A DNA stretch of 64,000 nucleotides from an uncultured Planctomycetia bacterium. GTDB taxonomy: Bacteria; Planctomycetota; Planctomycetia; Pirellulales; Thermoguttaceae. The DNA is taken from the NCBI GenBank assembly GCA_963719005.1, contig CAVRAR010000014.1, positions 1,392,901 to 1,456,900 of the forward strand. The letters are read 5' to 3'. The notes beneath the pieces were generated by a model. That model was given only the letters and a program-made list of their open reading frames with translations, searched no databases and was not told the origin of the DNA. This document shows, one piece after another, positions 143 to 53,496 of this stretch (within the stretch, counting starts at the first letter, position 1; each line of letters starts with the position of its first letter). Position numbers and translations under genes: made by a program.

Positions 143-1222
143 GTGGGTGACGGTCTAGTTGACGGAGATTGTCGTCGGTGGCATTATGAGACGTGGCAAG
201 CGACAGCGTCTCTGCCGCGTCTCTCCGCTGTGAGTAAGTTAGGATGCCAAAGATACCCGTCGGGAACACGTTTCTCAAACGATCAGCGCCTCCGGCCCTG
301 TTTGACCAACTTCCTCCGGTGGGTCTGCGGCATCGAAATTCAAAAGTGTGAAACGCCGGCGTCGCCGCAGGTATTCTATACCCATCCCAACGGAACCCTG
401 TGGGTTGGCGACAGCGTCGACTGGTTAGAGTCCTTGAAACCGGCATCCGTGGACCTGATCTTCGCCGATCCGCCCTACAACATCGGCAAGGCCGATTGGG
501 ATGAGTTTGACTCCCACGACGCCTATATCGAATGGTCGCTCCGATGGATCGAACTCGCTTCCCGAGTCCTGAAGCCGCACGGCAGTCTCTATGTTTGCGG
601 TTTCTCCGAAATCCTGGCCGACCTGCGGCGTCCGGCCGCGGAGTTTTTCGCCGGCTGTAAGTGGTTGGTCTGGTTCTATAAGAATAAGGCAAATCTGACA
701 AAGGACTGGGGACGTTCCCACGAGTCCATCCTTCACTATCGCAAGAGCCGCAAGACAACCTTCAACGTAGACGACGTACGGATTCCCTACGGCAGGCACA
801 CGCTGAAGTACCCCGTTCACCCCCAAGCCGAATCGAGCCAATACGGCGGCGGCAAGCCAGCCGGGGAAGATTGGCAACCGCATCCGCACGGTGCGAAGCC
901 GAAGGATGTTTTTGAGATTCCAGTCACGAGCAATGGGATGGCCGAGAAAACGCCACACCCAACGCAGAAGCCCGAGGAATTGATCCGGAAGCTCATTATT
1001 GCTTCCTCGAACGAAGGCGATTTGGTGGTCGATCCCTTTTCTGGGTCTGGAACCACTCTCGTTTGTGCGGAGCAACTCAATCGTAAATGGGCGGGATGCG
1101 ACCTCAATGCGGAGTACTGCTCCTGGGCCGTGATGCGCTTGGAACAGGTGCCCTCTCGAACCGTGGAGGAGTGGCTCGAATTGGACCGGAAAACCGCGGC
1201 CCGCAGGGAAAGCATCCGATGA
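143..1222 (+). CDS. DNA methyltransferase, beta-class (N6-adenine or N4-cytosine)
   Basis: DPPYN motif (..SVDLIFADPPYNIG..) early in the domain and FSGSGTT (motif I) near the C-terminus is the beta-class arrangement. Real start is probably a non-ATG codon around 300-350, because the N-terminal 60-70 aa of the ORF look like read-through. The stop overlaps the downstream ATG (ATGA). Confidence 0.8.
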   Translation: MGDGLVDGDCRRWHYETWQATASLPRLSAVSKLGCQRYPSGTRFSNDQRLRPCLTNFLRWVCGIEIQKCETPASPQVFYTHPNGTLWVGDSVDWLESLKPASVDLIFADPPYNIGKADWDEFDSHDAYIEWSLRWIELASRVLKPHGSLYVCGFSEILADLRRPAAEFFAGCKWLVWFYKNKANLTKDWGRSHESILHYRKSRKTTFNVDDVRIPYGRHTLKYPVHPQAESSQYGGGKPAGEDWQPHPHGAKPKDVFEIPVTSNGMAEKTPHPTQKPEELIRKLIIASSNEGDLVVDPFSGSGTTLVCAEQLNRKWAGCDLNAEYCSWAVMRLEQVPSRTVEEWLELDRKTAARRESIR

Positions 1223-2118
1223 AACTCGACAAACTCGTCGCCATCGCCTCGGACAAGACCAATTTCACCAAGCTTTCCGACTATTTGGATTTCTGCGTCC
1301 AATTCCTCGATTTCGCATCTCGCGGCTTGCAGGCCGTGATTGTTTCGCAGAACGAATGCCATTATCGCTTCTTTCAATACAAGAAAGACGGCCATTTCAA
1401 CGTCTCTCGCCCAATCAACTCCCAGTTGATGTATGATGCCGCGAACAGCAGCCTCATCAAGTCGCGGTTTGTCAGGACGTTGCGGCAGGCGAGAGACATT
1501 CCAGCCGAGGACAATGAAAGCCGCTGTCTCATCTGCAATTGCATCTACACAATCCAACAGTCGATCGGCGCGGCCCTTGACGCTCTTCCGGCGGGCAGGT
1601 CGAACAATGCGCGCAAGGTCAATGGCGACCTTTTCGAGCGACTGATCCGACTGCTCATCGCCGAATTGGGCATCGACTGTCGAAGCGGTGTGGTTAGCAT
1701 TCCGGTCGTGGCCGATGGCGTCGAATTGTTCCAGATGAGCTACCAACACGACTTGGTGGTTCGTTTCCAAGATGAAGTGAAGGTCATCGGATCGGTCAAG
1801 ACATCGAGTAAGGACCGTATCGACAAGATCTTCATGGACAAGTTCCTCTACAACCGCCTTGCGGAGACCGACATTCCCCATATCGCCGTTTTTCTGAACG
1901 ACGTGCAGAGGAAGAAAAATCGGCAGGAGAACCGCTTCGGCGTGAACGCCACTTTTCTGCCCGGTCACTTCAAGGGATACACAATCAGGCTGAATCCGCT
2001 TGACGGCGTGTACTATTGCGATATCCGTCCTAATATGCAAACTGACCCTTTCCTCCGCTCGCATATCCAAACGATCGATCACCTGTTCTGCACGGACCTT
2101 TGGTCATTTCTCGATTAG
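1219..2118 (+). CDS. candidate type II restriction endonuclease, partner of the methyltransferase
   Basis: Start is translationally coupled to the MTase stop. Possible PD-(D/E)xK signature in ..HDLVVRFQDEVKVIG... About 50% GC against a 65-68% background. No recognisable family name from sequence alone. Confidence 0.5.
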   Translation: MKLDKLVAIASDKTNFTKLSDYLDFCVQFLDFASRGLQAVIVSQNECHYRFFQYKKDGHFNVSRPINSQLMYDAANSSLIKSRFVRTLRQARDIPAEDNESRCLICNCIYTIQQSIGAALDALPAGRSNNARKVNGDLFERLIRLLIAELGIDCRSGVVSIPVVADGVELFQMSYQHDLVVRFQDEVKVIGSVKTSSKDRIDKIFMDKFLYNRLAETDIPHIAVFLNDVQRKKNRQENRFGVNATFLPGHFKGYTIRLNPLDGVYYCDIRPNMQTDPFLRSHIQTIDHLFCTDLWSFLD

Positions 2119-4718: not shown

Positions 4719-5408
4719 TTAAGCCTCCTCGCGCAGATCAAACTCCCAGTTGCCGCCCTTGTCGCGTATGGCGTCCAGACGATAGCGACAACCGAAGACG
4801 GCGGAAGGCTGGAAGCCGTCGACGTCGACGGAAACGGGCTCGAAGCCCTTCGGACCGGGCTGATGAATGATGAAGATGGGCTTTTCACCCCGAGCATCGA
4901 CCAGCCAGAACTCGCGCACGCCAGCCTGAAAATACGCCGCAGGCAGCCGCCGCGTATCTTTCTTCACGGAGGAATCACTGACGATTTCGACGACGAGGTC
5001 AGCCATCCCCTCCACTTCGATGTAGCGGTCGGCATGATGGCCGGCTTTCGGCACGAGCCGAGCGAGGCCAGATTCAAGGGTTTCGTAAGAGATGAAGACA
5101 ATATCCGGCTCGACGGACAAGTCGGCTTGGGGACAGGAGATACGCGTTCTATCGATTTGCAGATAGCCAAGTCGCTGTCTCTTTACGCGATGCGAAAGCA
5201 CCCGAGCAAACTCCGTTTTGACGCCTCCATGACAAAAGAACTCCTCCGGCGCCATGTCTACCTCGATCTTTCCCGCAATAAAGTCAATTCGACCGGTTTC
5301 CGGAAATTCGTCGGACAGCGCCCATTGACGGAAGTCGTCCAATGAGCGCATGGTGAGCGGCACCTCGATCTGCTCCTCAAAGATGATGCTCGTCGCCACG
5401 GATGCCAT
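4719..5408 (-). CDS. Uma2-family endonuclease (DUF820, restriction-endonuclease-like fold)
   Basis: 229 aa with the typical length and acidic/Lys pattern of Uma2 proteins (..DLVVEIVSDSSVKKD..). A clean ORF. Confidence 0.65.
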   Translation of the reverse strand: MASVATSIIFEEQIEVPLTMRSLDDFRQWALSDEFPETGRIDFIAGKIEVDMAPEEFFCHGGVKTEFARVLSHRVKRQRLGYLQIDRTRISCPQADLSVEPDIVFISYETLESGLARLVPKAGHHADRYIEVEGMADLVVEIVSDSSVKKDTRRLPAAYFQAGVREFWLVDARGEKPIFIIHQPGPKGFEPVSVDVDGFQPSAVFGCRYRLDAIRDKGGNWEFDLREEA

Positions 5409-5653: not shown

Positions 5654-7044
5654 GTGGCCGACAAAGCTTGGGGGGGAGTGTTCGAGCAGGCGACCGACCG
5701 TCGCGTCGAGGAGTTCACCGAAAGCGTGAGCTTCGACCGCCGTCTGTATGCGCATGACATCGACGGCTCGACCGCCCACGCCCAGATGTTGGCCAAGGTC
5801 GGCCTGCTGACGCCTCGACGAATGCCGCCAAATTGAGCAGGCGCTCCAGGAAATCCGCCAAGAAATTGAGCAGGGCCGATTCCCGTTCCGCACCGAACTC
5901 GAAGACATCCACATGCACATCGAGCGGGCGCTGATCGACCGGCTCGGCGACGTGGGGCGAAAACTGCACACCGCCCGCAGCCGAAACGATCAGGTGGCCA
6001 CCGACCTGCGGCTCTGGGTCCGCTGGGCGATCGACCGGATCGACGAGCGGCTGGTGGCCCTGCAACGGGCGCTGGTCGGCCGCTGCGACGCCGACGCCGA
6101 CGTGATCTTGCCCGGCTATACCCACATCCAACGGGCGCAGCCGGTCTTGGCCCCGCACTACTGGCTGGCCTACTGCGAGAAGTTCCAGCGCGACCGGCTG
6201 CGGTTGGCCGACTGCCGCCGCAGGGCGAACGTCCTGCCGCTGGGCGCCGCGGCCCTGGCGGGCACGAGCCTGCCGATCGATCGGGACGACGTTGCTGCGC
6301 GGCTCGGGTTCGAGGGCGTCGCCGCCAACAGCCTCGACGCCGTGAGCGACCGCGACTTCGCCGTCGAGTTCGCCTTCGTCCTGACGCTGGTGGCCGAGCA
6401 TTTGAGCACCTGGGCCGAGGAGTGGATCCTCTGGTCGACCGACGAGTTCGACTTCGTGAAGTTGCCGCAGGAGTTTTGCACCGGCTCGTCGATCATGCCG
6501 CAGAAGATCAATCCCGACGTGCTGGAATTGATCCGCGGCAAGACCGCCCGCGTCGTCGGCAATCTGCAAACGCTGCTGGTGTTGATCAAAGGGCTGCCGC
6601 TGGCCTACAATCGCGACCTCCAGGAAGACAAGCCGCCGCTGTTCGATTCGTTCGACACCGTGTCGCGCGTCGCTGGAACTGGCCGCCCCGCTGGTCGCCG
6701 GAATGAAGTTGAACCGCGAGGCGATTGCCGCGCGGCTCGACCGCGGACATCTCGACGCGACGACTTTGATGGAATACCTGATTCGCCGCGGCGTGCCGCA
6801 GCGGACCGCTCACGGGCTGGTCGGCCGGCTGGTGCGCAAGGCGCTCGATCGCGGCGTGCGGCTGTCGGATTTGTCGCTCGACGAGTTCCGCGAGGCCGAC
6901 GCCGGCCTGGATGCGAGCGTCTACGACGTGCTCGGTCCCGAGAAGGCCGTGGCGGCCATGACCAGTTTCGGATCGACCGGGCCGGAGCAGGTGAAGGAGC
7001 AAGTTCGGCGTTGGAAGAAGTTGTTGAAGCTGAAATCCTCTTGA
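5654..7044 (+). CDS. argH: argininosuccinate lyase, split by two single-base frameshifts
   Basis: N-terminus [35 protein letters not shown] in frame 2. Middle [55 protein letters not shown] in frame 0 from 5820. C-terminus [29 protein letters not shown] in frame 1 from 6703. Shifts are near 5815 and 6660-6700. GTG start at 5654 chosen by similarity to the MALWGGRF N-termini. Confidence 0.85.
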
Positions 7045-7058
7045 CTGTGAGCAATCCG

Positions 7059-9337
7059 ATGTTGCGAGACGGCCTTTTCCGATTCATCCGCTTGGCGGCT
7101 GTCGCTTTGTGTCTGACGGCGATCCTATCCGCGAATTCTGCAACCGCACAAGCCCCGAAGGCCAAACCACCGAAGGCCGACGAGCCGGCGGCGGCGAAGG
7201 AGGAGAAGAAGACCGACATCGACAAGATTTTGTCGGACAAGACGCCGCCCGAGAACGCCGCCGTCGCGGCGATTCTCGATACCAAGCCGACCACGCCCGA
7301 GGAATGCGTCCGTGCGGCGAAATTGCTGTTCGATTTCGATCGGGCGGATCTGGCCAAGGGGTTTCTTGAAGAAGGCTCTCGACGCGAATCTCGATCAGCA
7401 ACAGTTGGCCGATCTCGGCGAAGCAGATCGGCTCGCCGCTGTTCTTCGATCTGCGCGACCGGTCCGCGCTGCAGCCCGAGGCCAGGCAGCTTGCCGACGC
7501 CGTTGCCGCGGCCGTCAAGGCCAGGCTCGAAGACAGCCAGCGAATCGCCGGGCTGATCCAACAACTGCAAGACCCGTCGGCCGAGAAGCGTTTGCAGGCG
7601 ATTATCGGATTGCAAAAATCCGGCGCGGCGGCCGTCGGTCCGCTGATCGCCGTGTTGGCCGATCCGGCACGCGCCGCCGAGCACGCGAACGTGCGAGCGG
7701 CTTTGGCCGAGATGGGCCGAGCTGCGGAGCCGCCGCTGGTGGCTGTCGTCGAGCAGGCCGATCCGAAGACGGCGGTCCAGGCGATCGAGGTGCTCGGCGA
7801 GATGAACAACGCGAGGATGGCGTTCTGCCTGCTGCGGCCGGCTCTGTCGGACAAGAGCGACCCGGCGGTGCGCGAGGCGGCGGCCGCCGCTCTGAAAAAG
7901 CTGGGCGTTGCCGTTCCCAGTCGAGCCGAGGCCGTCAAGCGGCTTGTCCAGGACGCGAAGGACTATTTTGAGCGTCCCGCTAACGTCGAGGATTCGGCCG
8001 CGGGTGCGGAAAAGACGCCGCTGTGGCGATGGGACGCGGCTCGCCGGCAGCCCGTGGCCCGGGTCTGCACGCAAAACGACGTGGCCCGGGCGTTCTTCGC
8101 CCAGGAGGCTCGCGATGCTTACGCCATAGCGCCGAACGATGCGTTGGCTCGCCTCCTCTACTTGGCTACGATGCTCGAACGGGCGGCGTACGACAACGGT
8201 TTGGATCGGCCGTTGGATGCGAAGAACCCCGCGGCGGTCGAGGCAGCTCGATTCGGCGCGAAACAGATCGAGGAAGTGCTGACGTATGCCATGGCCGACA
8301 ATCGTCCGGCAGCGGCGGCAGCGGCGGCGCGACTGTTGGGTCAAATCGGCACGGCCGCCGAACTGCTCTACCGCGGCGCCTGGCCGTCGCCGTTGGCGCT
8401 GGCCGTCCAATCGCCCGACCGCCGCCTGCGCATGGCCGCCTGGAGGCCATCGTGCGGCTGCAACCGGCCAGACCGTTCGCCGGGTCGAGCTACGTGTTGC
8501 CGGCGCTGGGGTTCTTCGCCGGCAGCAGCGGCTCTCGCCATGCATTGGTCGCCGCTCCGAGCCTTATGGAGGCGCGGGAGTTGGCGGGCATGCTCGTCGG
8601 CGGCCGGCTTCGTCACCGATACGTTCACCAACGGCAAGGAATTGGTCCTCAGGGCCGCGCAATCGCCCGACTACGAGTTCGCGTTGATCGACGTGACGAT
8701 CGACCGACCCGTAATCGGCATCCTCTTGCAGCAGTTGAGGCACGACGCTCGAACGGCGTCGCTCCGCGTGGGGCTCATCGCCCGGTCGGGCGATTTCCAT
8801 GAGGCCGAACGTCTCGCGGGGCTCGATCCGTTGACAAAGGCATTCTCGCGGCCGCACGACGACGCGGCCTTCCGTTGGCAACTCGATCAGTTGGCGAGAC
8901 TGTCGCCGCAGAGCTTCGTCGGCTTCGAGGCTCGCCAGCGGCAAGCGGTCGAGGCCCTCGATCTGCTGGCCGAACTCGCCCAATCGTCGGGCAGTCTTTA
9001 CGATCTGCGGAGCGTGCAGAAATACCTCATCGCGGCGACGCACAATCCGAAGCTCGCCGCGAAGGCGGTCGCCGTGCTGGCCGAAGTCAACTCCGCCGAG
9101 AGCCAGCAGACGCTGGTCGACCTGGCGAGCCGCTTCACCTCGCCCTTGCCGCTGCGTCAGGCGGCGGCCAAGGCGTTTCGTCAAAACACCCAGCAACACG
9201 GCATCCTGTTGACGGCCGAGGAAATCCGCCGACAATACCAGCGATACAATGAGAGCGAAAAGCTGGATGCCCCCACACAGCACGTGCTAGGGCTGATCCT
9301 CGATTGTCTGGAAGTCGGAGCGCCGAAGAAGAAATAG
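7059..9337 (+). CDS. secreted HEAT/PBS-lyase-like repeat protein, several frameshifts
   Basis: Signal peptide [32 protein letters not shown]. Repeated ..AV..AA..ALGKIG.. HEAT-like units. Frame changes near 7380, 7560 and 8400-8600. Confidence 0.5.
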
Positions 9338-9435
9338 AATCGGAGGAGAGCGAAGAAAATCGAGAGCAGATCGCTGCGAAGCCGCAAGCGGCTTTCCAAT
9401 CCCTAATCCCTAGCCCCTAATCCCTGCCCCCTCCC

Positions 9436-10495
9436 ATGCCCCGCATTCCGCCGAACGTTGATCTGAACGAAACCGGGCCGCCGATCCCGGGGCTGATCGG
9501 CTCGGGACCGGCGATGGAACACGTCTACCGGCTGACGCGGCAGGTCGCCCGGTCGAACGCCTCGGTGCTGCTGCTCGGCGAGACGGGCACCGGCAAGGAA
9601 CTGATCGCCAAGGCGATTCACCGCCTCAGCCCGCGCGGCAGCGGCCCCTTCATCCGCGTCAACTGCGGGGCGCTCGCCGAAAATCTGCTGGAGAGCGAGT
9701 TGTTCGGGCACGTCCGCGGGGCGTTCACCGGCGCTGATCGACAACCGCACCGGACGGTTCGAGGCCGCACACACCGGCACCGTCTTCCTCGACGAAGTCA
9801 ACTCGACCAGTCCCAAGCTCCAGGTCAAACTGCTCCGCGTTTTGCAGGAGCACGAGTTCGAGCGCGTCGGCGACACGCAAACCATCCGCGTCGATACCCG
9901 CGTGATCGCCGCGAGCAACTGCGACCTGCTGGAAGAGACCGAGGCGGGCCGTTTCCGCGAAGATCTCTACTATCGGCTGAACGTGATAACGATCTACCTG
10001 CCGCCCTTGCGCGAGCGGCGCGAAGACATTCCATCGCTGGTCGGCTATTTTCTGAAGATTTACAACGAAGAGAACCTGCGGCACGTGCCGCACGTCGAGC
10101 CCGCCGCCATGCAGGCGTTGCAGGATTACTCGTGGCCGGGCAACGTGCGGGAATTGCAGAACTACATCGAGCGCGCGGTCGTCTTGGCCCCCGGCGATGA
10201 ATTGACCCGCGACCTGCTGCCCGAGGCGGTGTTGGGCGGCCGGCCGCGCCGCATCGGCCGCCTGCGGGCCGCCGACGTGGAAACGCTCGCCTCGGAACTG
10301 GTGCAGCAGGGCATCGAGACCGCCGGCGTCTCGGCCGAGAACCTCTACGCCACGGTGGTCAATCGCGTCGAGCGCGAGTTGATCGTCCAGGTGATGGCCG
10401 CCTGCGACAACGTGCAAATCAAAGCCGCCGAGCGCCTCGGCATCAACCGAAACACGCTGCACAAGAAGCTCAATGAATATGGGCTGGAGAAGTGA
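9436..10495 (+). CDS. sigma-54-dependent transcriptional activator with no N-terminal sensor/receiver domain, frameshifted
   Basis: Walker [25 protein letters not shown] motif, then after a frame change near 9725-9842 ..[21 protein letters not shown] and a C-terminal Fis-type HTH (..[15 protein letters not shown]). Confidence 0.85.
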
Positions 10496-10506
10496 AGGAG
10501 ATCGCC

Positions 10507-11703
10507 ATGTATCTCAGCCGATTCGGTGTGAAGAACTACAAGTGTCTCGGCGATATCGACATCCCGCTGACGCCGATTCACGTGCTGATTGGGCAGAATG
10601 ACTGCGGAAAGACGAGCTTGCTGGAAGCGATGGCGGCGTTCTACTCAACTGGGGAGAAGCCCGTGTCAGAGGTCTTTCCTGAGCCGTGGGCGGGGCCGGA
10701 ACTTGTCCGTCACGGAGCGCGAGAACGGCGTGTTGAACTGTGGGGCGAATGGGCAAACCTCGCGGCAGGCGATCTCTCTTCGGCGTTTCCGACGTTTCGC
10801 TACGGTCTGTCCGTGGATTTTCCGCCTCCTGACCATCGTTCTCTCCACACAAGGAATGGATGGACCGAGACGAATGGTGAAAGACACCCGTTTCCCCCGG
10901 GGCAAGCCCTACGCGATTCTCTCGGCGAGGATCGCGTGAGAAACGAAGCGAGTGCACTTTCGATGGTCCTGATACCGGCGCACCAATACGCACTTGACGC
11001 GAGTCAAATGGCGCTGCCGGCGGGTTTTGATTCCTTGCGCAGATTTCGCCTTGCTCCGGACGGATTTGGTTTGGCGACACTCCTTGACGACATTCTCAGT
11101 TTCGACCCAAACCGATTTCTTCAAATTCAAGGAGAGTTTTGCGGTTTCTTTCCGCAATTCCGAAAAGTTCAACTAGAAACGGAGTACGGCATTGATCGCA
11201 CGGTAACAGCAGACGGGCTACCTCAATCGTCGAGGGTAACGGGCAAAGGCATTTACTTGGAGATGAACTCCGGCCAGAGGGTTCGCGCTCGCCACGCCTC
11301 TGACGGAGCGATTCTATTCCTCGGGCTCCTTGCTCTGGCGCATTCACCCCAACAGCCAGGCTCACTCTTATTGGAGGAGCCTGAGAACGGCGTATACCCG
11401 ATGCGGCTGGGGCAGATTATCAAGCTACTGAAACAGATGGTGACTCGTACCGAGGGCGTGCAGTTCCCGCAGATTGTAATAACGACGCACTCGCCCTACG
11501 TGCTGAGTTTCTTTGAGCCAGAGGAGGTAACGCTACTTAGTCGCATGTCGGGAGAGCCGGATGCTCCCGTCCGCGCCCGGCCGCTCCGCGACGCTCCGAA
11601 CATCCGCGAACGATTAGGCAACGATTTCTATTTGGGCGAACTTTGGTATAACCTGAGTGAAGGAGAACTGTTCGGTGACGAGCCGCGCCAAAGTTGTGAT
11701 TGA
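10507..11703 (+). CDS. ABC-type (AAA_21/AAA_15-like) ATPase, defense-associated family
   Basis: Walker A GQNDCGKTSLLEAM, Walker B/D-loop LLLEEPENGVYP, H-loop ITTHSPYVL. Start is 12 nt after the sigma-54 activator stop. About 55% GC. Confidence 0.75.
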   Translation: MYLSRFGVKNYKCLGDIDIPLTPIHVLIGQNDCGKTSLLEAMAAFYSTGEKPVSEVFPEPWAGPELVRHGARERRVELWGEWANLAAGDLSSAFPTFRYGLSVDFPPPDHRSLHTRNGWTETNGERHPFPPGQALRDSLGEDRVRNEASALSMVLIPAHQYALDASQMALPAGFDSLRRFRLAPDGFGLATLLDDILSFDPNRFLQIQGEFCGFFPQFRKVQLETEYGIDRTVTADGLPQSSRVTGKGIYLEMNSGQRVRARHASDGAILFLGLLALAHSPQQPGSLLLEEPENGVYPMRLGQIIKLLKQMVTRTEGVQFPQIVITTHSPYVLSFFEPEEVTLLSRMSGEPDAPVRARPLRDAPNIRERLGNDFYLGELWYNLSEGELFGDEPRQSCD

Positions 11704-12361
11704 AGTGATCGGCGAGGGTCGCACGGACGTGGGAATGGCTGGAACCTCCGACGAACCGAGCGCCCCGTTGCCGCCGAACAAAGGCGTAGTGCCGATTATC
11801 GTTCATGCACTTTGCGGAAAGCCGGATACAATGCTTGTTGTGCGACGGCAGTATGCGTCCCTCCATGGAAAAGGGAAGACACGGGCGCAGAAAGTCCACT
11901 TCGCCAAACGCCAGGCACTCTACAACAACTCTACGGGGGTCGTCTTCCTGCTCGACTCGGAAGGTGATCTTAAAGGAAGAACGAGAGAACTGATCGAGGG
12001 GCGCGACCGCCAGTATCAAGAATATCCTGCGGCAGTCGGTGTCGCTCATCCTTGCATCGAAGCGTGGCTCTTGGCCGATGCCGCCGCTGTCGCGGAAGGT
12101 TTGAATCTCGCAAAGACGCCGGCCGTCCCCGCGAAGCCGGAAGAGTTGCCGGCGCCCTGCCACGACGCGAAGAAGAATCCAAAGGCGATGTTGAGAGAGA
12201 TCGCAAAACGGGCAATCTCGGTCAGCGACAAAGACCGCATCGCCGCTATCGCGGATATATCAGTGCTTCGACAGCATTGTCCGCTTGGCTTTTCCCCGTT
12301 CGCCGATGAAGTCGAAAAGCACATTCGTCCTTTATTCCAAAAACCATGCTCTCCGGCGTAG
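11675..12361 (+). CDS. DUF4276/RloB-like (Toprim-fold) protein, putative nuclease partner of the ATPase
   Basis: N-terminal ..KVVIEVIGEGRTD.. (EGxTE/D Toprim-like glutamate) and a later ..VVFLLDSEGD.. (DxD-like). GTG start overlaps the ATPase 3' end. Family assignment is from motif memory, not a search. Confidence 0.45.
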   Translation: MTSRAKVVIEVIGEGRTDVGMAGTSDEPSAPLPPNKGVVPIIVHALCGKPDTMLVVRRQYASLHGKGKTRAQKVHFAKRQALYNNSTGVVFLLDSEGDLKGRTRELIEGRDRQYQEYPAAVGVAHPCIEAWLLADAAAVAEGLNLAKTPAVPAKPEELPAPCHDAKKNPKAMLREIAKRAISVSDKDRIAAIADISVLRQHCPLGFSPFADEVEKHIRPLFQKPCSPA

Positions 12362-13314
12362 GCACCGTCTGTTTCGCTTCCAGCTACGCGATCGCGTGGG
12401 CGCTGGAAATCTCGCGGCTGCTGTTCCGCAGCGGCGTGCGCGGGGCGATCATGCTCGCATTCGCCGCCGCGGGATTGATCGCTCATACGGCATTCCTCTA
12501 TTATCGGGCCGTCAAGGTGGTCCATGCGCAAGGCGCACCGCTGTCGAGCGAAAGGGATTGGTTCCTCGTGGCGGCTTGGGCGCTGGTCGTGGTCTATCTT
12601 TGCCTGGCAGTTCTGCGTCCGAAGATCCCTTTCGGACTGTTTCTGCTTCCGTTGGCTCTCGGGCTGATCGGCGCGGCGACTTTTTGGGCCCCGACCGAAC
12701 CGCTGGCACGCGAGCCGGCGTCGAAAATCTGGGGGGCGATCCACGGCGTCTCGATCGTGCTGGCAGTCGTCTCCGTGCTCGTCGGATTCATGGCCGGCCT
12801 GATGTACCTCGGCCAATCGCGACGGCTGAAACACAAACACCTCCCCGCCGGCCGCCTGCGGCTGCCCAGCCTGGAATGGCTGGAAAAGGCCAACAGCCAC
12901 GCGATCGTTGCCTCGATGGTGATGCTCGGCGTCGGCGTTTTATCGGGCATGATATTGAATCTGATCAATAGCGGCAACGAAGCCGCACGTCTGCGATGGA
13001 ACGATCCGGTCGTGTTGAGCACCTGGTTGATGTTTCTTTGGCTGCTGGCAGCGGTGGCGGCCATCGCGATCTACCGCCCCGCCCGAAAAGGCCGCAAAGT
13101 CGCCTACCTCACGGTCGCCAGCTTCGTCTTCCTCGTCATCATGCTCGCCGCCGGCCTGCTGATGGATAGCCGGCATTGGGGAAGAGGAGAAGGGAAGAAT
13201 GCTGAATGCGGAATGATGAATGATGAATATTCGCAGGCGTCGGCTTCACGTAATTCATCATTCATCACTCATCATTCATCATTCATCGTTCCCCCCGGAG
13301 GCCGGCCATGTTAG
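12346..13314 (+). CDS. cytochrome c assembly family membrane protein (HemX/CcsA-like), upstream of hemA
   Basis: About 8 predicted TM helices. ..LMYLGQSRRLKHKHL.. is typical of the Cytochrom_C_asm family. hemX-hemA synteny as in Bacillus. The real C-terminus probably lies before the palindrome at 13195-13288. Confidence 0.55.
   Translation: MLSGVGTVCFASSYAIAWALEISRLLFRSGVRGAIMLAFAAAGLIAHTAFLYYRAVKVVHAQGAPLSSERDWFLVAAWALVVVYLCLAVLRPKIPFGLFLLPLALGLIGAATFWAPTEPLAREPASKIWGAIHGVSIVLAVVSVLVGFMAGLMYLGQSRRLKHKHLPAGRLRLPSLEWLEKANSHAIVASMVMLGVGVLSGMILNLINSGNEAARLRWNDPVVLSTWLMFLWLLAAVAAIAIYRPARKGRKVAYLTVASFVFLVIMLAAGLLMDSRHWGRGEGKNAECGMMNDEYSQASASRNSSFITHHSSFIVPPGGRPC
13195..13288. repeat. AT-rich palindromic element (GAATGATGAATGATGAA ... 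TTCATCATTCATCATTC), family E
   Basis: Near-perfect inverted repeat arms around a roughly 30-nt centre. The same element recurs at 59078-59168. Confidence 0.7.
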
Positions 13315-14579
13315 CGCGCGTGGTCGGTTGCAGCCATCACGGCACGTCGATTGACCTGCGCGAACGGCTGGCGTTCTCGCATGAACAAGTGCGCGAGGCG
13401 CTCGATCATTGGCGGCGGGTGTTTCCCGGCGTCGAGGCGGTGCTGCTTTCGACCTGCAATCGCGTGGAGATTTACGCCGCCACCGAGCATGAAACGGAGC
13501 CGGGGCTCGATCAGATCGCCGGATTCCTCGCCCGCTTTCACGGCCTCGATCCCGGCGAAATCGCCGAGCATCTTTACCAATACAGCGACGAGGCGGCGGT
13601 GCAGCACCTGTTCACCGTGGCGTCGAGCCTCGACAGCATGGTGCTCGGCGAGACGCAGATCCTCGCCCAGGTGAAAGAGGCGTATCAGACGGCCACCGAG
13701 CAGGACAACACCGGGCCGCTGCTGCACGCCACTTTCCAGGCGGCGCTCCGCGTGGCACGGCGAGTGGCCAAGGAGACGGCGATCCACCAGCGCCGCGTCA
13801 GCATTCCCAGCGTGGCGGTCGCCGATTTCGCCCGGCAGGTCTTCGAGCGCTTCGACGACAAGCACGCCCTGGTCGTCGGGGCGGGCGAGATGGCCGAGGA
13901 ATGCCTGCGCTACCTCCGCGATGAAGGCATCCAACGGGTGACGGTCGTCAATCGGCATTTTCAACGGGCGGCCGAGTTGGCCCAGCGATGGAAGGGCGAG
14001 GCGGCGCCGTGGGAGAATCTCGCCGCGTCGCTGGCCGCCGCCGATCTCGTGGTCAGCACGACCGGCGCGACGGAACCGGTGGTCACCGCCGAGCGCTTCG
14101 CCGCGGTCGAAGCATCGCGGTTTCAGCGGCCGCTGCTGATTCTCGACCTCGCCGTGCCCCGCGACTTCGAGCCCTCGATCGGCGATCGGCCCAACGTGTA
14201 TCTCTATTCGATCGACGATCTGCAAGCGGTTTGCAATCGGAATCGCGCGGCGCGCGATCGGGAATTGCCCGCGGCGATGCACATCGTCGAACAGGAGACG
14301 ATCCGCTTCATCGCCGAGATGCGCCGGCACGCCGTCGGTCCGGTGATCGAGCGGCTCAGACAGGGCTGGCAGAAGCCGAAGGAGGAGGAGTTGCAGCGGC
14401 TGCTGCACAAGCTGCCGGAGTTGGACGATCGCGCCCGCGACGAAATCCGCCGCTCGTTCGAGCGGCTGGTGAACAAGCTGTTGCACCCGCCGCTGGAGTC
14501 GCTCCGCGACGAGTCGCGGCACGGCGTGCCGCGGGCGCTGTTGGACGCGCTGGCGCGGCTGTTCCAGTTGAAGGATTGA
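13308..14579 (+). CDS. hemA: glutamyl-tRNA reductase
   Basis: ..LSTCNRVEIYA.. catalytic-Cys motif and an NADPH-binding ..ALVVGAGEMAE... 423 aa. Confidence 0.9.
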   Translation: MLARVVGCSHHGTSIDLRERLAFSHEQVREALDHWRRVFPGVEAVLLSTCNRVEIYAATEHETEPGLDQIAGFLARFHGLDPGEIAEHLYQYSDEAAVQHLFTVASSLDSMVLGETQILAQVKEAYQTATEQDNTGPLLHATFQAALRVARRVAKETAIHQRRVSIPSVAVADFARQVFERFDDKHALVVGAGEMAEECLRYLRDEGIQRVTVVNRHFQRAAELAQRWKGEAAPWENLAASLAAADLVVSTTGATEPVVTAERFAAVEASRFQRPLLILDLAVPRDFEPSIGDRPNVYLYSIDDLQAVCNRNRAARDRELPAAMHIVEQETIRFIAEMRRHAVGPVIERLRQGWQKPKEEELQRLLHKLPELDDRARDEIRRSFERLVNKLLHPPLESLRDESRHGVPRALLDALARLFQLKD

Positions 14580-14615
14580 CCGATTCCGGCCAGAGAATGA
14601 TGGAGTTTTGTGAGA

Positions 14616-14644
14616 TTGTCGATTTGCAGATTATGAGGTAGAAT
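14616..14644 (+). promoter_or_regulatory. candidate sigma-70-type promoter (TTGTCG, 17-nt spacer, TAGAAT) for the ATPase/PIN module
   Basis: Seen directly in AT-richer intergenic DNA about 35 nt upstream of the 14679 start. Confidence 0.25.
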
Positions 14645-14678
14645 TGGGTGTTAACGCCCGAGTGGCAGGTGAACAAAC

Positions 14679-15992
14679 ATGCCGATAAACACGATACAAT
14701 TGCGGGACTTCAAGTGCTTCGCAGACAGCGGAGATATACCGTTTGCGCCATTGACGATCATCTTCGGTCGCAACAATACCGGCAAGTCCTCGATTCTGCA
14801 AAGCATCCTGTTGCTCCGGCAGACGTTGGATTCTCCAGAGTATGGTCCTAGGCTTGATCTTCGGGGGCCGCTCTATCAGGCAGGAAGTTACGCTGATATC
14901 GTGCATCAGCACAAAGCCAGCCAAAACGTCGTAATGGAGTTTCATGTTACTCCGAACAACGGCGCACCTGCAAAGATCGAACTGGAGTTCAGTTCGGATG
15001 AGCCCCAGCCAGCCAGATTGGTGCGTCTGAAGGTACATGGTCGAGCCGCCGATCCGCTGGAGATTAAGCGTGGTCGTGGGCGTGGCGGCCCATATGAATT
15101 GTTTATTGGCGAAGAGTCTCAGGGTTCCGAAACGGATGCACTCTTTCGATTTCCTCAAAGCGGTTTCTTTCCTCTTATAGGCCCTGAACCAGCCCGGCGA
15201 GGTCGCCCAAACAAGAAGCACGAAGAGATTCGCGACTTTACTCGGGAAAGCCTACAGAGCTTTGAGATCATTCTAAGGTCAATACGAGCGGTTGGGGCTT
15301 TTCGGCAGCAGCCAATTCGCCGTTACGAATACCAGGGACGCGCTTCGGAAACGATAGACGCCGCCGGTCGATCTGTTGTCGACGCGTTGATTGAAGATTC
15401 CTTGCGGCGGGGACAGAAGCGTGGCGAGTTGTTCAAGTCTGTCAATCGGTGGCTCAAGGCCGTCGGGCGCGTTCGAATTCTTCCATTCAGACGAATTTCC
15501 AAAACGGCGCGTATTTTCGAGGTCCGCCTGAGGGACACAGACTCGGGAAGATGGGCTAATTTTGCCGACGTGGGCTTTGGAATAGGCCAAGCGTTCCCCG
15601 TTTTCGTGGAAGGCTTGCGGACTCCTGAAGGTGGCACTTTCATTGTCCAGGAACCGGAGATTCACTTGCACCCAGATGCGCAACTCGGAATGGCGGACTT
15701 TCTTGTTAGCCTTGCAAAGAGCGGTCGGCACGTCATCGCCGAAACACACAGCGAGAACCTGCTTCTTCGGATCAGACGATTAATGACCGGTAAGACACCG
15801 ATGTTTAACCGTAAGGATGTGAGTATCCTTTATGTGGCAAAGCGTCTCGACGGAACCAGCCACGTCACTCCGTTGGAAATCGACGAGATGGCACAGATCA
15901 GGAATTGGCCAAAAGGGTTCATGGAGGAAGCTACCGATGAGCGAATGGCAATTCTTAGAAGGATGGCTGGTGACTCCCCAAAGGGACGCTAA
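14679..15992 (+). CDS. ABC-type (AAA_21-like) ATPase, second copy of the defense-associated family
   Basis: Walker A FGRNNTGKSSILQSI, Walker B FIVQEPEIHLHPD, H-loop AETHSENLL. About 52% GC. Confidence 0.75.
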   Translation: MPINTIQLRDFKCFADSGDIPFAPLTIIFGRNNTGKSSILQSILLLRQTLDSPEYGPRLDLRGPLYQAGSYADIVHQHKASQNVVMEFHVTPNNGAPAKIELEFSSDEPQPARLVRLKVHGRAADPLEIKRGRGRGGPYELFIGEESQGSETDALFRFPQSGFFPLIGPEPARRGRPNKKHEEIRDFTRESLQSFEIILRSIRAVGAFRQQPIRRYEYQGRASETIDAAGRSVVDALIEDSLRRGQKRGELFKSVNRWLKAVGRVRILPFRRISKTARIFEVRLRDTDSGRWANFADVGFGIGQAFPVFVEGLRTPEGGTFIVQEPEIHLHPDAQLGMADFLVSLAKSGRHVIAETHSENLLLRIRRLMTGKTPMFNRKDVSILYVAKRLDGTSHVTPLEIDEMAQIRNWPKGFMEEATDERMAILRRMAGDSPKGR

Positions 15993-15994
15993 GT

Positions 15995-16435
15995 ATGCCG
16001 AGTGAAGTCGTTATCGATACGACCGTACTGCAAAAGGCAAATGCGCCTATTCTCAATCCGCCGGGGAAGCGGTCACGATTTGCACGGCGGCTTAGACTTC
16101 TGAACAGTATACGAACTGGGGACATTGCCGTTCTCTTCAGCAAACGATTGCTTACCGAATACCAAAAACAGGTCAAGAGCCCTAGAAACGACTTCGTCAA
16201 GCTGTTCTTTGAGCTTCTCACCGATCCAGGGCGGGCGATCTACAACTGGCCAAAGTGGTCGGGGCAAGAGTCTGAGAAGGCGCGACACTGCCGATTTCCA
16301 CGGGAGGACTATCATGTCCTTCGCACGGCCATCCGCCCCAATGCGACAACCATCGTGACTGAGGAGGATCGCATGCTTCGGAGAGACGACTGCATCTACC
16401 GCGAATTTCGAGTCCATGTTTGTGACATTCCTTGA
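15995..16435 (+). CDS. PIN-like domain protein, putative nuclease partner of the ATPase
   Basis: Starts 3 nt after the ATPase stop. N-terminal VVIDTTVL with a conserved Asp, then ..REDYHVLRTAI.. and ..TTIVTEEDRML.. carry the further acidic residues spaced as in PIN domains. Confidence 0.4.
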   Translation: MPSEVVIDTTVLQKANAPILNPPGKRSRFARRLRLLNSIRTGDIAVLFSKRLLTEYQKQVKSPRNDFVKLFFELLTDPGRAIYNWPKWSGQESEKARHCRFPREDYHVLRTAIRPNATTIVTEEDRMLRRDDCIYREFRVHVCDIP

Positions 16436-16462
16436 CGCCAAGGTCCATGGCGTTGGCACGCA

Positions 16463-19113
16463 ATGAGTTGCGCAGGAGGCGCGTCTCCGATGCTCGACCC
16501 ACAACTCAGCACCGGATTGCCGGGATTGGACCGCGTCTTGCGCGGCGTTCTGCCGGGCGACAATTTCGTCTGGCAGGTGGAATCGCTGGCCGATTTCATG
16601 CCTTTTGCCAAGGCGTTCTGCGAGGCGGCGCTGGCCGAGGGCAAGAAGCTGGTCTATTTCCGCTTCGCCGACCACGAGCCGCTCGTGCCGGAATCGCTCG
16701 AGGCCGACGTCCACGTGCTGCGCGGCAACGAGGAGTTCGAGCCGTTCGTGACCGAGGTTCATCGGGTCGTTCAAGCGGCGGGAGCGGGAACGCATTTCGT
16801 CTTCGATTGCCTTTCGAACCTCGTCGACGTGTGGTTCAGCGACCGGATGCTCGGCAATTTCTTCATGCTGACTTGCCCGGCCATCTCCGAGTGCCAATCG
16901 CTGGCCTACTTCCCGCTGATCCGCCATCGGCACAGTTTTCACGCCTCGGGCCCGATCACCGAAACGACGCAGATCCTGATCGACGTGTTTCGCCATCGGG
17001 GGCGATTCTACATCCATCCGACGAAGGTCGAGCACCGTTTCTCGTCGACGATGAACATGCTGCACCGCTGGGACGGCGACCGCTTCCTGCCGGTGATGGA
17101 AAGCTCGACGACCGCCGAGGTGCTCACCTCGCGGCCCTGGGCAGGGCTGGAATCCGTTCGCCTCCGCCCCGGCGAGTGGACGCGCACGTTCTTCCACGCC
17201 GAGGAGGTTTCCGACAAGGTCCGCCGCGGAAAGCTGCCGGCCGAAGCGGCGCGGCAACTGCTGCCCGAGTTGCTGCGGATGGTGATTTCGCGCGACCAGC
17301 GCGTCATGCCGCTTGGTCGAACGCTATTTCACGCTCCCCGACGTGGTGGAAATCTGGAAACGCATGATCGGCTCCGGGCTGATCGGCGGAAAGTCGGTCG
17401 GCATGTTGTTGGCCCGGGCTATCCTGAGAAACTCCGACCGACGCTGGAACGATCTGCTCGAAGCCCACGATTCGTTCTTCATCGGCTCGAACGTGTTTTG
17501 CTCGTTCATGGTCGAAAACGGCTGCTGGTGGCTGCGGCAGAAGCAGCGCGACCCCGCCACGTTTCTCGACGGCATCGAGGAGACCCGGCGGCTCGTGCTG
17601 GCGGGCCAATTTCCCCAGTATCTCGTCGACGAGTTCGCCGAAATGCTCGATTATTTCGGGCAATCGCCGATCATCGTCCGTTCCAGCAGCCTGCTGGAAG
17701 ACGCCTACGGCAACGCCTTCTCCGGCAAGTACGAGAGCGTGTTCTGCGCCAACCAGGGGCCGCACTCGAAGCGATTGCAGGAATTCCTCTCGGCCGTCAA
17801 GACGATCTACGCCAGCACGATGAGCGAAAAGGCCCTGCGATACCGCGCCCAGCGCGGGCTGTTGGATCGCGACGAGCAGATGTCGCTGCTGGTGCAGCGG
17901 GTCTCCGGCGCCTGCTACGACACCCTGTTCTTCCCGCAAATCGCCGGCGTCGGTCTCTCGCGCAACCCTTACGTCTGGAACGAGTGCATCGATCCCGAGC
18001 GCCGGCGTAGTGCGGCTGGTGTTCGGCTTGGGCACGCGGGCGGTCGATCGCTCGGACGACGACTACACGCGGATCGTCGCCCTGAACGCGCCCGATCGCC
18101 GCCCGGAGGGCGATCTGGATTGCGTGCGGCAGTTCAGCCAGCGCAAGGTCGATCTGATCGATCTGGAGGCGAATCATCTGGTGTCGCGCGATTTCGTCGA
18201 CGTGGCCGCCGCCGGCCCTCATCTGCCGCTGCATATTTTCGCTTCCGCCGACGACGCCGATACCTCCGGCGGTGAAGAGGGGAGCGAGACGCCGAGCAAT
18301 CCGAACCTGGTTCTCACTTTCGACGAGCTGCTCTCGAAGACCCCCTTCATCGGCGACATGCGCGAGATGCTGCGCGTGCTTCAGACGGCTTACGACTATC
18401 CGGTCGATATCGAGTTCACCGCGAATTTCCCCGCGTCGGATCGCTACAAGATCAATCTCGTGCAGTGCCGGCCGCTGCAAGTGGCCGCCGACGGCGGAAC
18501 CGTCGAATTGCCCGAGTCGCTCGATCGCAACGATTGCATTCTCGAAGCCCACGGCGCGGTGATCGGCAAGAGCCGCGTCAACCTGATCGACCGGCTGGTG
18601 TACGTGGCGCCGTCGGTTTACGGGCAGCTTCCGATCCGCGACCGTTACAGCGTGGCTCGGCTGATCGGCCGGCTGTTGCACCTCGACGAGCCGAAGCCGC
18701 CGGAGCAGATCATGCTGATCGGGCCGGGCCGCTGGGGCACCACCACGCCTTCGCTGGGCGTGCCCGTCTCCTTCGCCGAAATCGACACCGCCACCGTGCT
18801 CTGCGAGATCGTCGCCATGCGCGAAGACCTCGTGCCCGACGTCTCGTTGGGAACGCATTTCTTCAACGACCTGGTCGAGATGGACATTCTCTATCTGGCG
18901 CTGTTTCCGGGCCGCAAGGGCAACTCCTGGAACTATGCGTTCTTCGAGCAGACGCCGAACCGCCTGGCGGAACTGCTGCCCAACGACGGGCGATGGTCGG
19001 AAGTGGTCCGGGTGATCGACATGCCCCGCGACGGCGCCACGCTGAAACTCAACGCCAACGCCTTGACGCAGCAGGTGCTCTGCTATCTGGACAAGTCGGG
19101 CCACGTCGTCTAA
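16463..19113 (+). CDS. large protein fusing a degenerate KaiC/RecA-like domain (no Walker A) to a PEP-synthase/pyruvate-phosphate-dikinase N-terminal ATP-grasp domain (PPDK_N) and an unknown C-terminal domain; two frameshifts
   Basis: N-terminus ..LSTGLPGLDRVLRGVLPGDNFVWQVES.. is KaiC-like but lacks GxxxxGKT. PPDK_N motifs ..GGKSVGMLLA.., ..IIVRSSSLLEDAYGNAFSGKYESV.. and ..VDIEFTANF..INLVQCRPLQV... Frame changes near 17300 and 18000. Confidence 0.55.
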
Positions 19114-53080: not shown

Positions 53081-53144
53081 CCAATTGGAAATGGAAATTC
53101 TCGGTCGCCTGGGTTAGAATCTTCCCCCAGACGAGGAGAATTTC

Positions 53145-53495: not shown

Positions 53496-53496
53496 A

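What the first reader, a model, noticed from the sequence alone, without database searches (positions are those of the whole stretch)
10507..12361. ABC-type ATPase + DUF4276/RloB-like Toprim pair placed directly behind a sensor-less sigma-54 activator
This is a two-gene module with overlapping stop and start, about 10 GC points below background. It has the architecture of split OLD-family / AbiL-like / PARIS-like defense systems (ABC ATPase plus Toprim-fold nuclease). Its start is 12 nt after the stop of a sigma-54 enhancer-binding protein that has no N-terminal regulatory domain, which suggests co-transcription or regulatory coupling. I cannot assign it to a named system from sequence alone.
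Basis: partly seen in the sequence, partly recalled or inferred. Interest (0 to 1): 0.6.

Follow-up and report, generated by a model that had tools for sequence, protein, structure and literature searches.

The report
ATPase–Toprim defence-like cassette in operon hotspot
This is an intact two-gene cassette, an ABC-type ATPase plus a small Toprim-fold nuclease of an already catalogued candidate anti-phage type (PADLOC HEC-01, related to MADS Mad3/Mad4), and it sits behind the sigma-54 activator only because that gene junction is a swap site for small mobile cassettes in this group of planctomycetes.

Summary
Window 10507-11703 encodes a 398-aa ABC ATPase (AAA_15/AAA_21). Window 11675-12361 encodes a 228-aa DUF4276 protein that overlaps the ATPase gene. 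GC is about 8 points below the flanks, and GC3 about 25 points below. Both proteins match PADLOC HEC-01A/B. They match MADS Mad3/Mad4 only far below cut-off. The DUF4276 model (pLDDT 93) is a four-strand alpha/beta fold. Its best nuclease matches are the OLD and AriB Toprim domains, and the acidic residues are conserved in the expected places.

The proposed coupling to the sigma-54 activator is not supported. The backbone ASL-HEAT-activator-ccsA-like-hemA is conserved across Pirellulales, and the activator stop usually lies 5-8 nt from the ccsA-like start. The cassette fills that junction in only 7 of 53 relatives. Other relatives carry an MNT/HepT toxin-antitoxin pair or other cargo there. 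The ATPase-DUF4276 pair also occurs elsewhere without any activator. A genome with 92% identical HemA carries a 58% identical allele at the same site.

My reading is that this is a mobile, promoter-less HEC-01-type cassette, read through from a housekeeping operon. It most likely works as an ATPase sensor controlling a Toprim nuclease. No defence activity has been shown for this type. It is a new member of a known kind, of modest interest.

The parts
9436..10495 (+). Left flank, not part of the cassette. Sigma-54 enhancer-binding protein without an N-terminal sensor domain (AAA+ sigma-54 domain, lid, Fis-type HTH). Broken here by a 1-nt insertion at 9735.
   Evidence: Pfam Sigma54_activat, AAA_lid_14 and HTH_8 are split over two frames. 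An extra T at 9735 relative to L043 and L007. Orthologues of 350-352 aa sit in the same gene string in about 50 Pirellulales loci.
10495..10506 (+). Left junction: the last base of the activator stop codon plus an 11-nt spacer carrying AAGGAG (10495-10500), 6 nt before the ATPase ATG.
   Evidence: Sequence. Identical junction in L043. Empty sites have only 5-8 nt between the activator stop and the ccsA-like ATG.
10507..11703 (+). ABC-type ATPase, 398 aa (HEC-01A-like, AAA_15/AAA_21). The Walker A lysine K35, signature S265-D266-G267, Walker B/catalytic E290-E291-P292-E293 and H-loop H328 are all present.
   Evidence: Pfam. PADLOC HEC-01A E=3e-31, with one model matched nearly end to end. Invariant columns in a 71-sequence alignment. 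AlphaFold model pLDDT 91.5. Best structural matches are PtuA, Rad50 and SMC heads, E about 1e-13. PDB sequence hits to an OLD nuclease and PtuA.
10747..10986 (+). Hypervariable insert of the ATPase (aa 81-160, a beta-sheet extension between the first helix and the second core strand). Candidate sensing or partner surface.
   Evidence: Mean top-residue frequency is 0.34-0.44 here against 0.85-0.94 in the ATPase core. DNA identity to the closest relative L043 falls to 32-56% over 10660-11290, while the flanking genes are about 90%. Strands at residues 75-129 in the model.
11675..12361 (+). DUF4276 Toprim-fold protein, 228 aa (HEC-01B-like, a distant Mad4 relative). Predicted metal-dependent nuclease effector. 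Alternative starts at 11657 and 11696.
12346..13314 (+). Right flank, not part of the cassette. ccsA/HemX-like membrane protein whose start overlaps the DUF4276 stop by 16 nt. It is followed by hemA (13308-14579), which overlaps it by 7 nt.
   Evidence: Pfam Cytochrom_C_asm. Conserved next to hemA in all 80 relatives' loci that hold the upstream sequence. DNA identity to L090 jumps to 82-98% from about 12310 onward.

Best explanation
The region is a mobile, promoter-less two-gene cassette of the PADLOC HEC-01 type. It combines an SMC/Rad50/PtuA-like ABC ATPase with a stand-alone DUF4276 Toprim-fold nuclease. It is inserted in sense orientation into the 5-8-nt junction between the sigma-54 activator gene and the ccsA-like/hemA genes of a conserved Pirellulales (family Thermoguttaceae) gene string.

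That junction is a cargo hotspot. Different relatives carry nothing, this cassette in divergent alleles, or toxin-antitoxin genes there.

Shown:
- the identities of both proteins, with ATPase and acidic Toprim motifs intact;
- strict ATPase-DUF4276 adjacency across the family;
- patchy presence and allele replacement at the site;
- foreign base composition;
- a hypervariable ATPase insert.

Inferred, by analogy with PARIS (AriA/AriB), OLD/Gabija and Septu: the ATPase oligomer holds or restrains the Toprim nuclease. Its variable insert senses an invader-derived cue in an ATP-dependent way. The nuclease is then released or activated and cuts nucleic acid (DNA or tRNA; substrate unknown). The outcome is invader destruction or abortive infection.

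Also inferred: expression comes from read-through of the host operon.
For: Identity:
- Pfam and PADLOC hits.
- Confident models.
- Structural neighbours are PtuA/Rad50/SMC for the ATPase and OLD/AriB Toprim for the partner.
- Conserved catalytic-type residues.

Obligate pairing: the ATPase is immediately upstream of DUF4276 in 35 of 37 close and 19 of 19 distant metagenome loci.

Mobility and hotspot:
- The cassette is present in 7 of 53 loci with the conserved junction. It is always lower in GC than the flanks, 0.40-0.59 against 0.58-0.69.
- Empty sites have 5-8 nt between the two genes.
- Alternative cargo is MNT/HepT or a Zn-ribbon membrane protein.
- The same pair sits next to SecA, HisG, TopA, MotB or an MmeI-like enzyme elsewhere.
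- L090 has 92% identical HemA but 58% identical DUF4276, with a sharp identity step at about 12310.
- Syntenic and non-syntenic copies are interleaved in a neighbour-joining tree.

Variable insert.

Literature:
- HEC-01 is an ABC ATPase plus TOPRIM pair found embedded in Hma systems (bioRxiv 10.1101/2024.01.29.577857).
- DUF4276 is described as Toprim, and Mad4 as a homologue (PMC12065111).
- MADS3-4 and AbiL are placed among ABC ATPase plus TOPRIM systems, and the AriA/AriB release mechanism is described (PMC11464382).
Against: - No defence function has been demonstrated for this type. The HEC-01 representative gave no protection against any phage tested in E. coli.
- The motif after strand 3 is D-x-E rather than the canonical DxD.
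- No physical ATPase-nuclease interaction was tested.
- Flanks elsewhere are mostly housekeeping genes rather than recognised defence islands.
- No hits in viral contigs.
- No flanking repeats, integrase or transposase explain the mobility.
- The neighbour-joining tree has no support values.
Confidence: 0.6

Rival explanations
1. Regulatory coupling. The sensor-less sigma-54 activator and the ATPase-Toprim pair form one functional unit. For example, the pair controls or is controlled by the activator, or is a sigma-54-dependent stress module.
For: Same strand, 11-nt gap, no terminator. The activator-cassette arrangement recurs in several genomes and metagenome contigs.
Against: The activator is part of a string conserved down to Lacipirellula, Aeoliella and Botrimarina and usually abuts ccsA directly. 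Only 7 of 53 junctions hold the cassette. Other cargo uses the same site. The pair occurs without any activator in most other contexts, with the activator upstream in 5 of 21 close and 0 of 13 distant loci. There is no sigma-54 promoter motif within several kb.
Confidence: 0.05
2. A selfish addiction or toxin-antitoxin-like cassette. The Toprim nuclease is a toxin held in check by the ATPase. The pair persists by post-segregational killing or by stabilising its locus, with no dedicated anti-phage role.
For: The same hotspot carries bona fide toxin-antitoxin genes (MNT/HepT) in sister genomes. The Pfam AAA_21 description refers to an AbiEii-type toxin-antitoxin system. HEC-01 gave no phage protection when tested. 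The cassettes stand alone between housekeeping genes.
Against: The hypervariable ATPase insert and the allele turnover look like an arms race with an external partner. Related ABC ATPase plus nuclease pairs (PARIS, Septu, HEC-02/03/04) are experimentally defensive. Toxin-antitoxin and abortive-infection roles are not mutually exclusive.
Confidence: 0.2
3. A housekeeping DNA-repair or DNA-maintenance pair, analogous to RecF (ABC ATPase) with RecR (Toprim) or Rad50/SbcC-type machines, retained in this operon for genome maintenance.
For: The ATPase resembles Rad50, SMC and RecF heads. The partner has a Toprim-like fold. The cassette is embedded in a housekeeping operon.
Against: Patchy presence among close relatives, foreign GC/GC3, replacement by divergent alleles, a hypervariable insert, and best matches to defence-type HMMs rather than any NCBIfam housekeeping equivalog.
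Confidence: 0.05
4. An inactive relic: a decaying cassette with no current function, merely tolerated in the operon.
For: Neighbouring genes in this assembly carry frameshifts. In L001 and L043 the ATPase gene is split.
Against: Both ORFs are intact here and keep every invariant family residue. The frameshifts are scattered over housekeeping genes too, which fits long-read assembly errors. Family-wide conservation of the ATPase core and the Toprim motifs implies purifying selection.
Confidence: 0.05

Closest known systems
HEC-01 (Hma-embedded candidate 01; PADLOC-DB v2; Payne et al., bioRxiv 10.1101/2024.01.29.577857)
   Same: Two adjacent same-strand genes, an ABC ATPase followed by a small TOPRIM-like protein. 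Both window proteins have HEC-01A and HEC-01B as their best PADLOC hits. The acidic metal-site residues are conserved.
   Different: It is not embedded in an Hma/MADS methylation system. It stands alone inside a housekeeping operon. The HMM matches are moderate (107 and 32 bits). It belongs to a planctomycete-specific subfamily. HEC-01 itself is an unvalidated candidate, with no protection seen.
MADS Mad3/Mad4 (methylation-associated defence system, Maestri et al. 2024; NCBIfam NF047739 and NF047734)
   Same: The same ATPase plus DUF4276 pairing. Weak matches to both models. Distant family members do sit beside a DNA methylase and a GHKL-type ATPase (L163).
   Different: Scores are far below the equivalog cut-offs, 84 against 420 and 18.5 against 160 bits. 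No methyltransferase or other mad genes lie nearby.
PARIS (AriA ABC ATPase plus AriB DUF4435 Toprim nuclease)
   Different: The partner is DUF4276, not DUF4435. There is no AriB HMM hit. The PADLOC AriA hits have the lengths and coordinates of the generic Pfam models. The ATPase is structurally closer to PtuA, Rad50 and SMC. Its trigger and substrate are unknown.
OLD-family nucleases and Gabija GajA (class 1 and 2 OLD)
   Same: An ABC ATPase with a Toprim nuclease. The top PDB sequence hit of the ATPase is an OLD nuclease. The top structural nuclease matches of the partner are OLD Toprim regions.
   Different: In OLD and GajA the two domains are fused in one polypeptide. Here they are separate overlapping genes. 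There is no GajB-like helicase.
AbiL (AbiLi ATPase plus AbiLii RloB) and Septu (PtuA plus PtuB HNH)
   Same: Two-gene ABC ATPase plus nuclease abortive-infection or defence modules. 17 of 71 family members also touch the RloB model. PtuA is the best structural match of the ATPase.
   Different: The window protein itself matches DUF4276, not RloB. There is no HNH partner.

Membership tests
Pfam DUF4276 (PF14103) | Score above Pfam's gathering cut-off | tested here: met
   37.5 bits against a cut-off of 30.2, E=3.9e-9. 69 of 71 aligned homologues also hit.
Toprim-fold nucleases | Three-layer alpha/beta fold with a four-stranded parallel sheet, resembling solved Toprim nucleases | tested here: inconclusive
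Toprim-fold nucleases | Conserved Glu after strand 1 and an acidic DxD motif after strand 3 | tested here: met
   E14 (with E10, G13, G15 and D18) follows strand 7-13. Invariant D94 and near-invariant E96 follow strand 88-94. The motif is D-x-E rather than the strict DxD.
ABC ATPases of the AAA_15/AAA_21 (OLD/PtuA/AriA-like) group | Walker A, signature, Walker B/catalytic Glu and H-loop present; ABC/SMC-head fold | tested here: met
   AAA_15 scores 81.5 bits and AAA_21 80.3 bits, both above cut-off. K35, S265/G267, E290/E291/E293 and H328 are invariant. Foldseek matches PtuA, Rad50 and SMC heads at E about 1e-13.
PADLOC HEC-01 | Adjacent HEC-01A (ATPase) and HEC-01B (TOPRIM) genes | tested here: met
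   HEC-01A E=3e-31 and HEC-01B E=2e-8 are the best hits for each protein, and the genes overlap on the same strand.
PADLOC HEC-01 | Embedded within an Hma/MADS methylation-type system (the context in which it was defined) | tested here: not met
   The neighbours are the sigma-54 activator and the ccsA-like and hemA genes. There is no methylase or helicase.
PADLOC HEC-01 | Demonstrated anti-phage activity | not testable with these tools
   Payne et al. saw no protection from their HEC-01 representative.
MADS (Mad3/Mad4 equivalogs) | NCBIfam equivalog cut-offs reached, and other mad genes present | tested here: not met
   84 against 420 bits and 18.5 against 160 bits. No methyltransferase is in the neighbourhood.
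PARIS | AriB-type DUF4435 Toprim partner | tested here: not met
   No DUF4435 or AriB hit in Pfam or PADLOC. There is only fold-level similarity to AriB.
OLD / Gabija | ATPase and Toprim fused in one protein (plus a GajB helicase for Gabija) | tested here: not met
   They are two separate ORFs and no helicase is adjacent.
Sigma-54-dependent operon | A -24/-12 promoter (TGGCAC-N5-TTGC) upstream of the regulated genes | tested here: not met
   No match with up to 2 mismatches between 3310 and 14221. Matches across the window are no more than expected by chance.

The most novel reading that the evidence does not exclude
The tight gene junctions on both sides of ccsA-like/hemA in Thermoguttaceae and wider Pirellulales act as operon-embedded immune slots. 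Promoter-less two-gene sensor-nuclease or toxin-antitoxin cassettes are exchanged there by homologous recombination through the conserved flanks. Examples are HEC-01-like cassettes upstream, a HEC-03/Menshen-like ATPase plus PIN pair downstream, and MNT/HepT in sister genomes. The cassettes are expressed by read-through of an essential haem-biosynthesis operon, and the ATPase insert is swapped or diversified as a specificity module. This would be a mode of defence-gene carriage without mobile-element machinery, and a natural set of DUF4276 alleles for finding the first trigger of a HEC-01-type system.
Probability: 0.3. Interest if true: 0.5.

Novelty: new member of a known kind. Interest (0 to 1): 0.3.

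Why it matters
On its own the cassette adds a planctomycete subfamily to the catalogued but functionally unproven HEC-01 / Mad3-Mad4 class of ABC ATPase plus DUF4276 Toprim pairs.

Three things are useful:
- The apparent link to a sigma-54 regulator is positional and should not be propagated into annotations.
- The family shows strict pairing, an intact catalytic make-up and a sharply hypervariable ATPase insert. These make it a reasonable candidate for finding what HEC-01-type systems sense.
- The activator/ccsA junction, and the hemA 3' junction, behave as small cargo hotspots inside a housekeeping operon. This is a pattern that island-based defence-discovery methods would miss.

Tried and rejected
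- A sigma-54 promoter search (TGGCAC-N5-TTGCW, up to 2 mismatches) found nothing near the cassette, and counts across the window were at chance level.
- The terminator and sigma-70 promoter scan found no terminator between the activator gene and hemA, and no promoter in front of the cassette.
- A search for flanking direct or inverted repeats that would mark an integration site found only chance-level short matches.
- An Rfam scan of 9000-17000 found nothing above gathering score.
- A viral-contig scan with the DUF4276 profile found no relatives.
- PHROGs gave no hit for the DUF4276 protein and only unknown-function families for the ATPase.
- A PDB sequence search with the DUF4276 profile gave no meaningful hit.
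- P0195 (635 aa) was suspected to be an ATPase-Toprim fusion, but it has no DUF4276 similarity.
- The exact-sequence look-up of the source contig (P0121, 100% identical ATPase, 1.65-Mb contig) was not on record.
- A single ancient gain with vertical descent was considered. I reject it as the sole explanation because of L090 (92% HemA, 58% DUF4276) and the interleaving of syntenic and non-syntenic copies in the tree. The small clade of the window, L043, L001, L087 and L088 does look vertically related.
Full report
**1. What is in the sequence**

On the + strand, an ATG at 10507 opens a 398-aa ORF that ends at 11703. A second ORF in another frame ends at 12361.
- The second ORF can start at GTG 11657, 11675 or 11696.
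- I favour 11675 (228 aa). AAGGAG lies 9 nt upstream, and the N-terminus then lines up with the homologues.
- The two genes therefore overlap by 29 nt.
- The ATPase ATG lies 11 nt after the stop of the upstream gene and is preceded by AAGGAG.
- The DUF4276 stop lies 16 nt inside the next gene (a ccsA-like membrane protein, 12346-13314). That gene in turn overlaps hemA (13308-14579).
- No terminator-like or sigma-70-like site separates these genes.
- GC is 0.568 for the pair against 0.654 and 0.643 for the flanks. GC3 is 0.60-0.62 against 0.85-0.87 for the activator gene and hemA.

The corrections are 228 aa not 229, an 11-nt not 12-nt spacer, a 29-nt overlap, and about 8 GC points below the flanks.

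**2. Protein identities**

*ATPase*
- It passes Pfam AAA_15 (81.5 bits) and AAA_21 (80.3 bits).
- In a 71-sequence family alignment, the Walker A lysine (K35), the signature S265-D-G267, E290/E291/E293 and the H-loop H328 are invariant.
- Its AlphaFold model (pLDDT 91.5) best matches the PtuA ATPases of Septu and retron systems, and Rad50 and SMC heads (E about 1e-13, TM about 0.5).
- By sequence its best solved relatives are an OLD nuclease and PtuA.

*Partner protein*
- It passes Pfam DUF4276 (37.5 bits against a cut-off of 30.2).
- 69 of 71 relatives hit the same model and 17 also touch RloB.
- Its model is confident (pLDDT 93.2, pTM 0.91), with four strands alternating with helices.
- Conserved acidic residues sit where Toprim enzymes have them. 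E14 (with E10 and D18) follows strand 1, invariant D94 and near-invariant E96 follow strand 3, and E129 follows strand 4.
- The Foldseek top PDB hit is the Toprim region of Burkholderia OLD, but it is weak (E=0.048, TM 0.40-0.44).
- I therefore treat "Toprim-fold nuclease" as likely but not proven. This agrees with two papers that reached the same assignment for DUF4276 (PMC12065111; bioRxiv 10.1101/2024.01.29.577857).

**3. Named systems**

- PADLOC's best hits are HEC-01A (E=3e-31) and HEC-01B (E=2e-8).
- HEC-01 was defined as an ABC ATPase plus TOPRIM pair embedded in Hma systems. Its tested representative protected against none of the phages tried.
- The NCBIfam models for MADS Mad3 and Mad4 match only far below their cut-offs (84 against 420 bits, 18.5 against 160 bits).
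- The PARIS paper lists MADS3-4 and AbiL among ABC ATPase plus TOPRIM systems.
- No AriB/DUF4435, GajB or HNH partner is present, and no methylase lies nearby.

So this is a stand-alone member of the HEC-01 / Mad3-Mad4 kind. It is not PARIS, Gabija, Septu or MADS.

**4. The sigma-54 activator link**

The upstream gene is a sensor-less enhancer-binding protein. Its sigma-54 domain starts at residue 20 and is followed by a lid and an HTH_8 domain. In this window it is broken by one extra T at 9735 relative to two close relatives.

To test linkage I fetched 80 loci around hemA from species-representative genomes and mapped all neighbours.
- The string ASL - HEAT-repeat protein - activator - ccsA-like - hemA is conserved from the closest MAGs (HemA 90-92%) down to Lacipirellula, Aeoliella and Botrimarina (HemA 54-58%).
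- In many loci the activator stop and the ccsA-like ATG are only 5-8 nt apart.
- The ATPase-DUF4276 pair fills that junction in only 7 of 53 scorable loci. It is always lower in GC than the flanks.
- Five near relatives (L007-L010, L014) instead have a 640-670-nt insert, read in L007 as an MNT nucleotidyltransferase plus HepT/HEPN toxin-antitoxin pair.
- L028 has MNT plus a Zn-ribbon membrane protein. L043 has the cassette plus that membrane protein.
- Elsewhere the pair sits between unrelated genes such as SecA, HisG, TopA, MotB or an MmeI-like enzyme.
- Distant relatives sit beside a methylase/GHKL ATPase or a helicase.

In 80 metagenome loci found with the DUF4276 profile:

| Feature tested | Close relatives | Distant relatives |
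|---|---|---|
| ATPase immediately upstream | 35 of 37 | 19 of 19 |
| Activator upstream | 5 of 21 | 0 of 13 |
| ccsA-like downstream | 11 of 43 | 0 of 14 |

. No sigma-54 promoter motif lies near the cassette.

The pairing of the two cassette genes is obligate. The association with the activator is positional.

**5. Turnover at the site**

- Against the closest cassette-bearing relative (L043, HemA 92%), DNA identity is about 90% in the activator gene and 84-96% in ccsA.
- Within the cassette it is 67-90% in the ATPase ends and DUF4276. It is only 32-56% across 10660-11290, the ATPase insert.
- That insert (aa 81-160) is also the least conserved part family-wide.
- A metagenome contig with 92% identical HemA (L090) carries a DUF4276 that is only 58% identical. 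DNA identity steps from about 40-75% to 82-98% near 12310.
- In a neighbour-joining tree (no support values), junction-resident and non-resident copies are interleaved.

This points to repeated gain or allele replacement at a hotspot, not simple vertical descent. I found no repeats, integrase or transposase. Recombination through the conserved flanks is my inference.

**6. Mechanism**

Shown:
- an intact ATPase with all catalytic motifs;
- a partner with Toprim-like acidic residues;
- obligate adjacency of the two genes;
- a hypervariable ATPase insert;
- foreign base composition and patchy, replaceable presence.

Inferred by analogy with PARIS, OLD/Gabija and Septu:
- the ATPase oligomer restrains the nuclease;
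- the variable insert detects an invader cue in an ATP-dependent way;
- the nuclease is then released or activated and cuts DNA or tRNA.

Expression by read-through from the host operon is also inferred, from the gene packing. The main caveat is that no HEC-01-type system has shown activity. A toxin-antitoxin-like selfish role is the strongest rival.

**7. Verdict**

This is a real feature. It is a new planctomycete member of a catalogued candidate class, and the sigma-54 coupling is not supported. Interest is modest. The hotspot behaviour and the variable insert are the parts worth following. The family is not rare: 1,058 cluster representatives at E<=1e-3 and 57 at E<=1e-30 in 1.84 billion proteins.

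Noticed in passing
window 14679-16435: A second low-GC (0.53) two-gene cassette directly after hemA. It pairs an ABC ATPase carrying a DUF3696 tail with a PIN_3 protein. The ATPase hits PADLOC NsnB at 1e-62, PDC-M55A at 4e-57 and HEC-03B at 3e-52. This matches the ATPase plus PIN (HEC-03 / Menshen-like) kind. Relatives L001, L007, L031 and L043 have only -25 to 138 nt at this junction, so it is an insertion specific to this genome among those sampled.
   Followed up: partly
window 9735 (in the activator gene 9436-10495); also about 6600-6703 in the argininosuccinate lyase gene: One extra T at 9735 relative to L043 and L007 frameshifts the sigma-54 activator inside its GAFTGA region. The ASL gene and the HEAT-repeat gene are also split across frames. 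The closest relatives are long-read MAGs with similar splits. Assembly indels are likely, but real pseudogenes are not excluded.
   Followed up: partly
L007 8313-8961; L028 1438-2147; L043 8580-8981: The same activator/ccsA junction carries other cargo in relatives. L007 has an MNT nucleotidyltransferase plus HepT (HEPN) toxin-antitoxin pair, and L008-L010 and L014 have a same-sized insert. L028 has MNT plus a Zn-ribbon/glycine-zipper membrane protein. L043 has that membrane protein behind the cassette.
   Followed up: partly
window 13192-13296: A long imperfect inverted repeat, with arms up to 37 nt made of GAATGATGAAT-type units, lies in the last codons of the ccsA-like gene, just upstream of the hemA ATG at 13308. 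It gives the protein an odd repetitive tail, also seen in L007. No Rfam family matches. It may be a regulatory hairpin for hemA. Not tested.
   Followed up: no
window 1087-2118 and 4719-5408 (-): A type II restriction endonuclease (PADLOC REase_II, E=3.5e-103) lies in a low-GC stretch at the start of the window. A Uma2-family putative endonuclease lies at 4719-5408 on the minus strand.
   Followed up: no
window about 51250-56100: Another low-GC block (minimum 0.54) holds several ORFs without Pfam or PADLOC hits and a dCTP-deaminase-like protein at 55437-56108. It may be another foreign island.
   Followed up: no
window 9401-9428; L020 and L040 junctions: Short simple tandem repeats lie in the intergenic DNA around the activator gene: CCCTAATCCCTAGC/CCCTAATCCCTGCC just upstream of its start here, GGCGGAAGG-type repeats in L020 and GACGAATGA-type repeats in L040 just after its stop. 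Their significance is unknown.
   Followed up: no
DUF4276 family alignment A1 (window protein residues C47, C127, C202, H125): Three invariant cysteines and a near-invariant histidine sit next to the predicted active-site region. This could be a structural metal site or a redox-sensitive feature.
   Followed up: no
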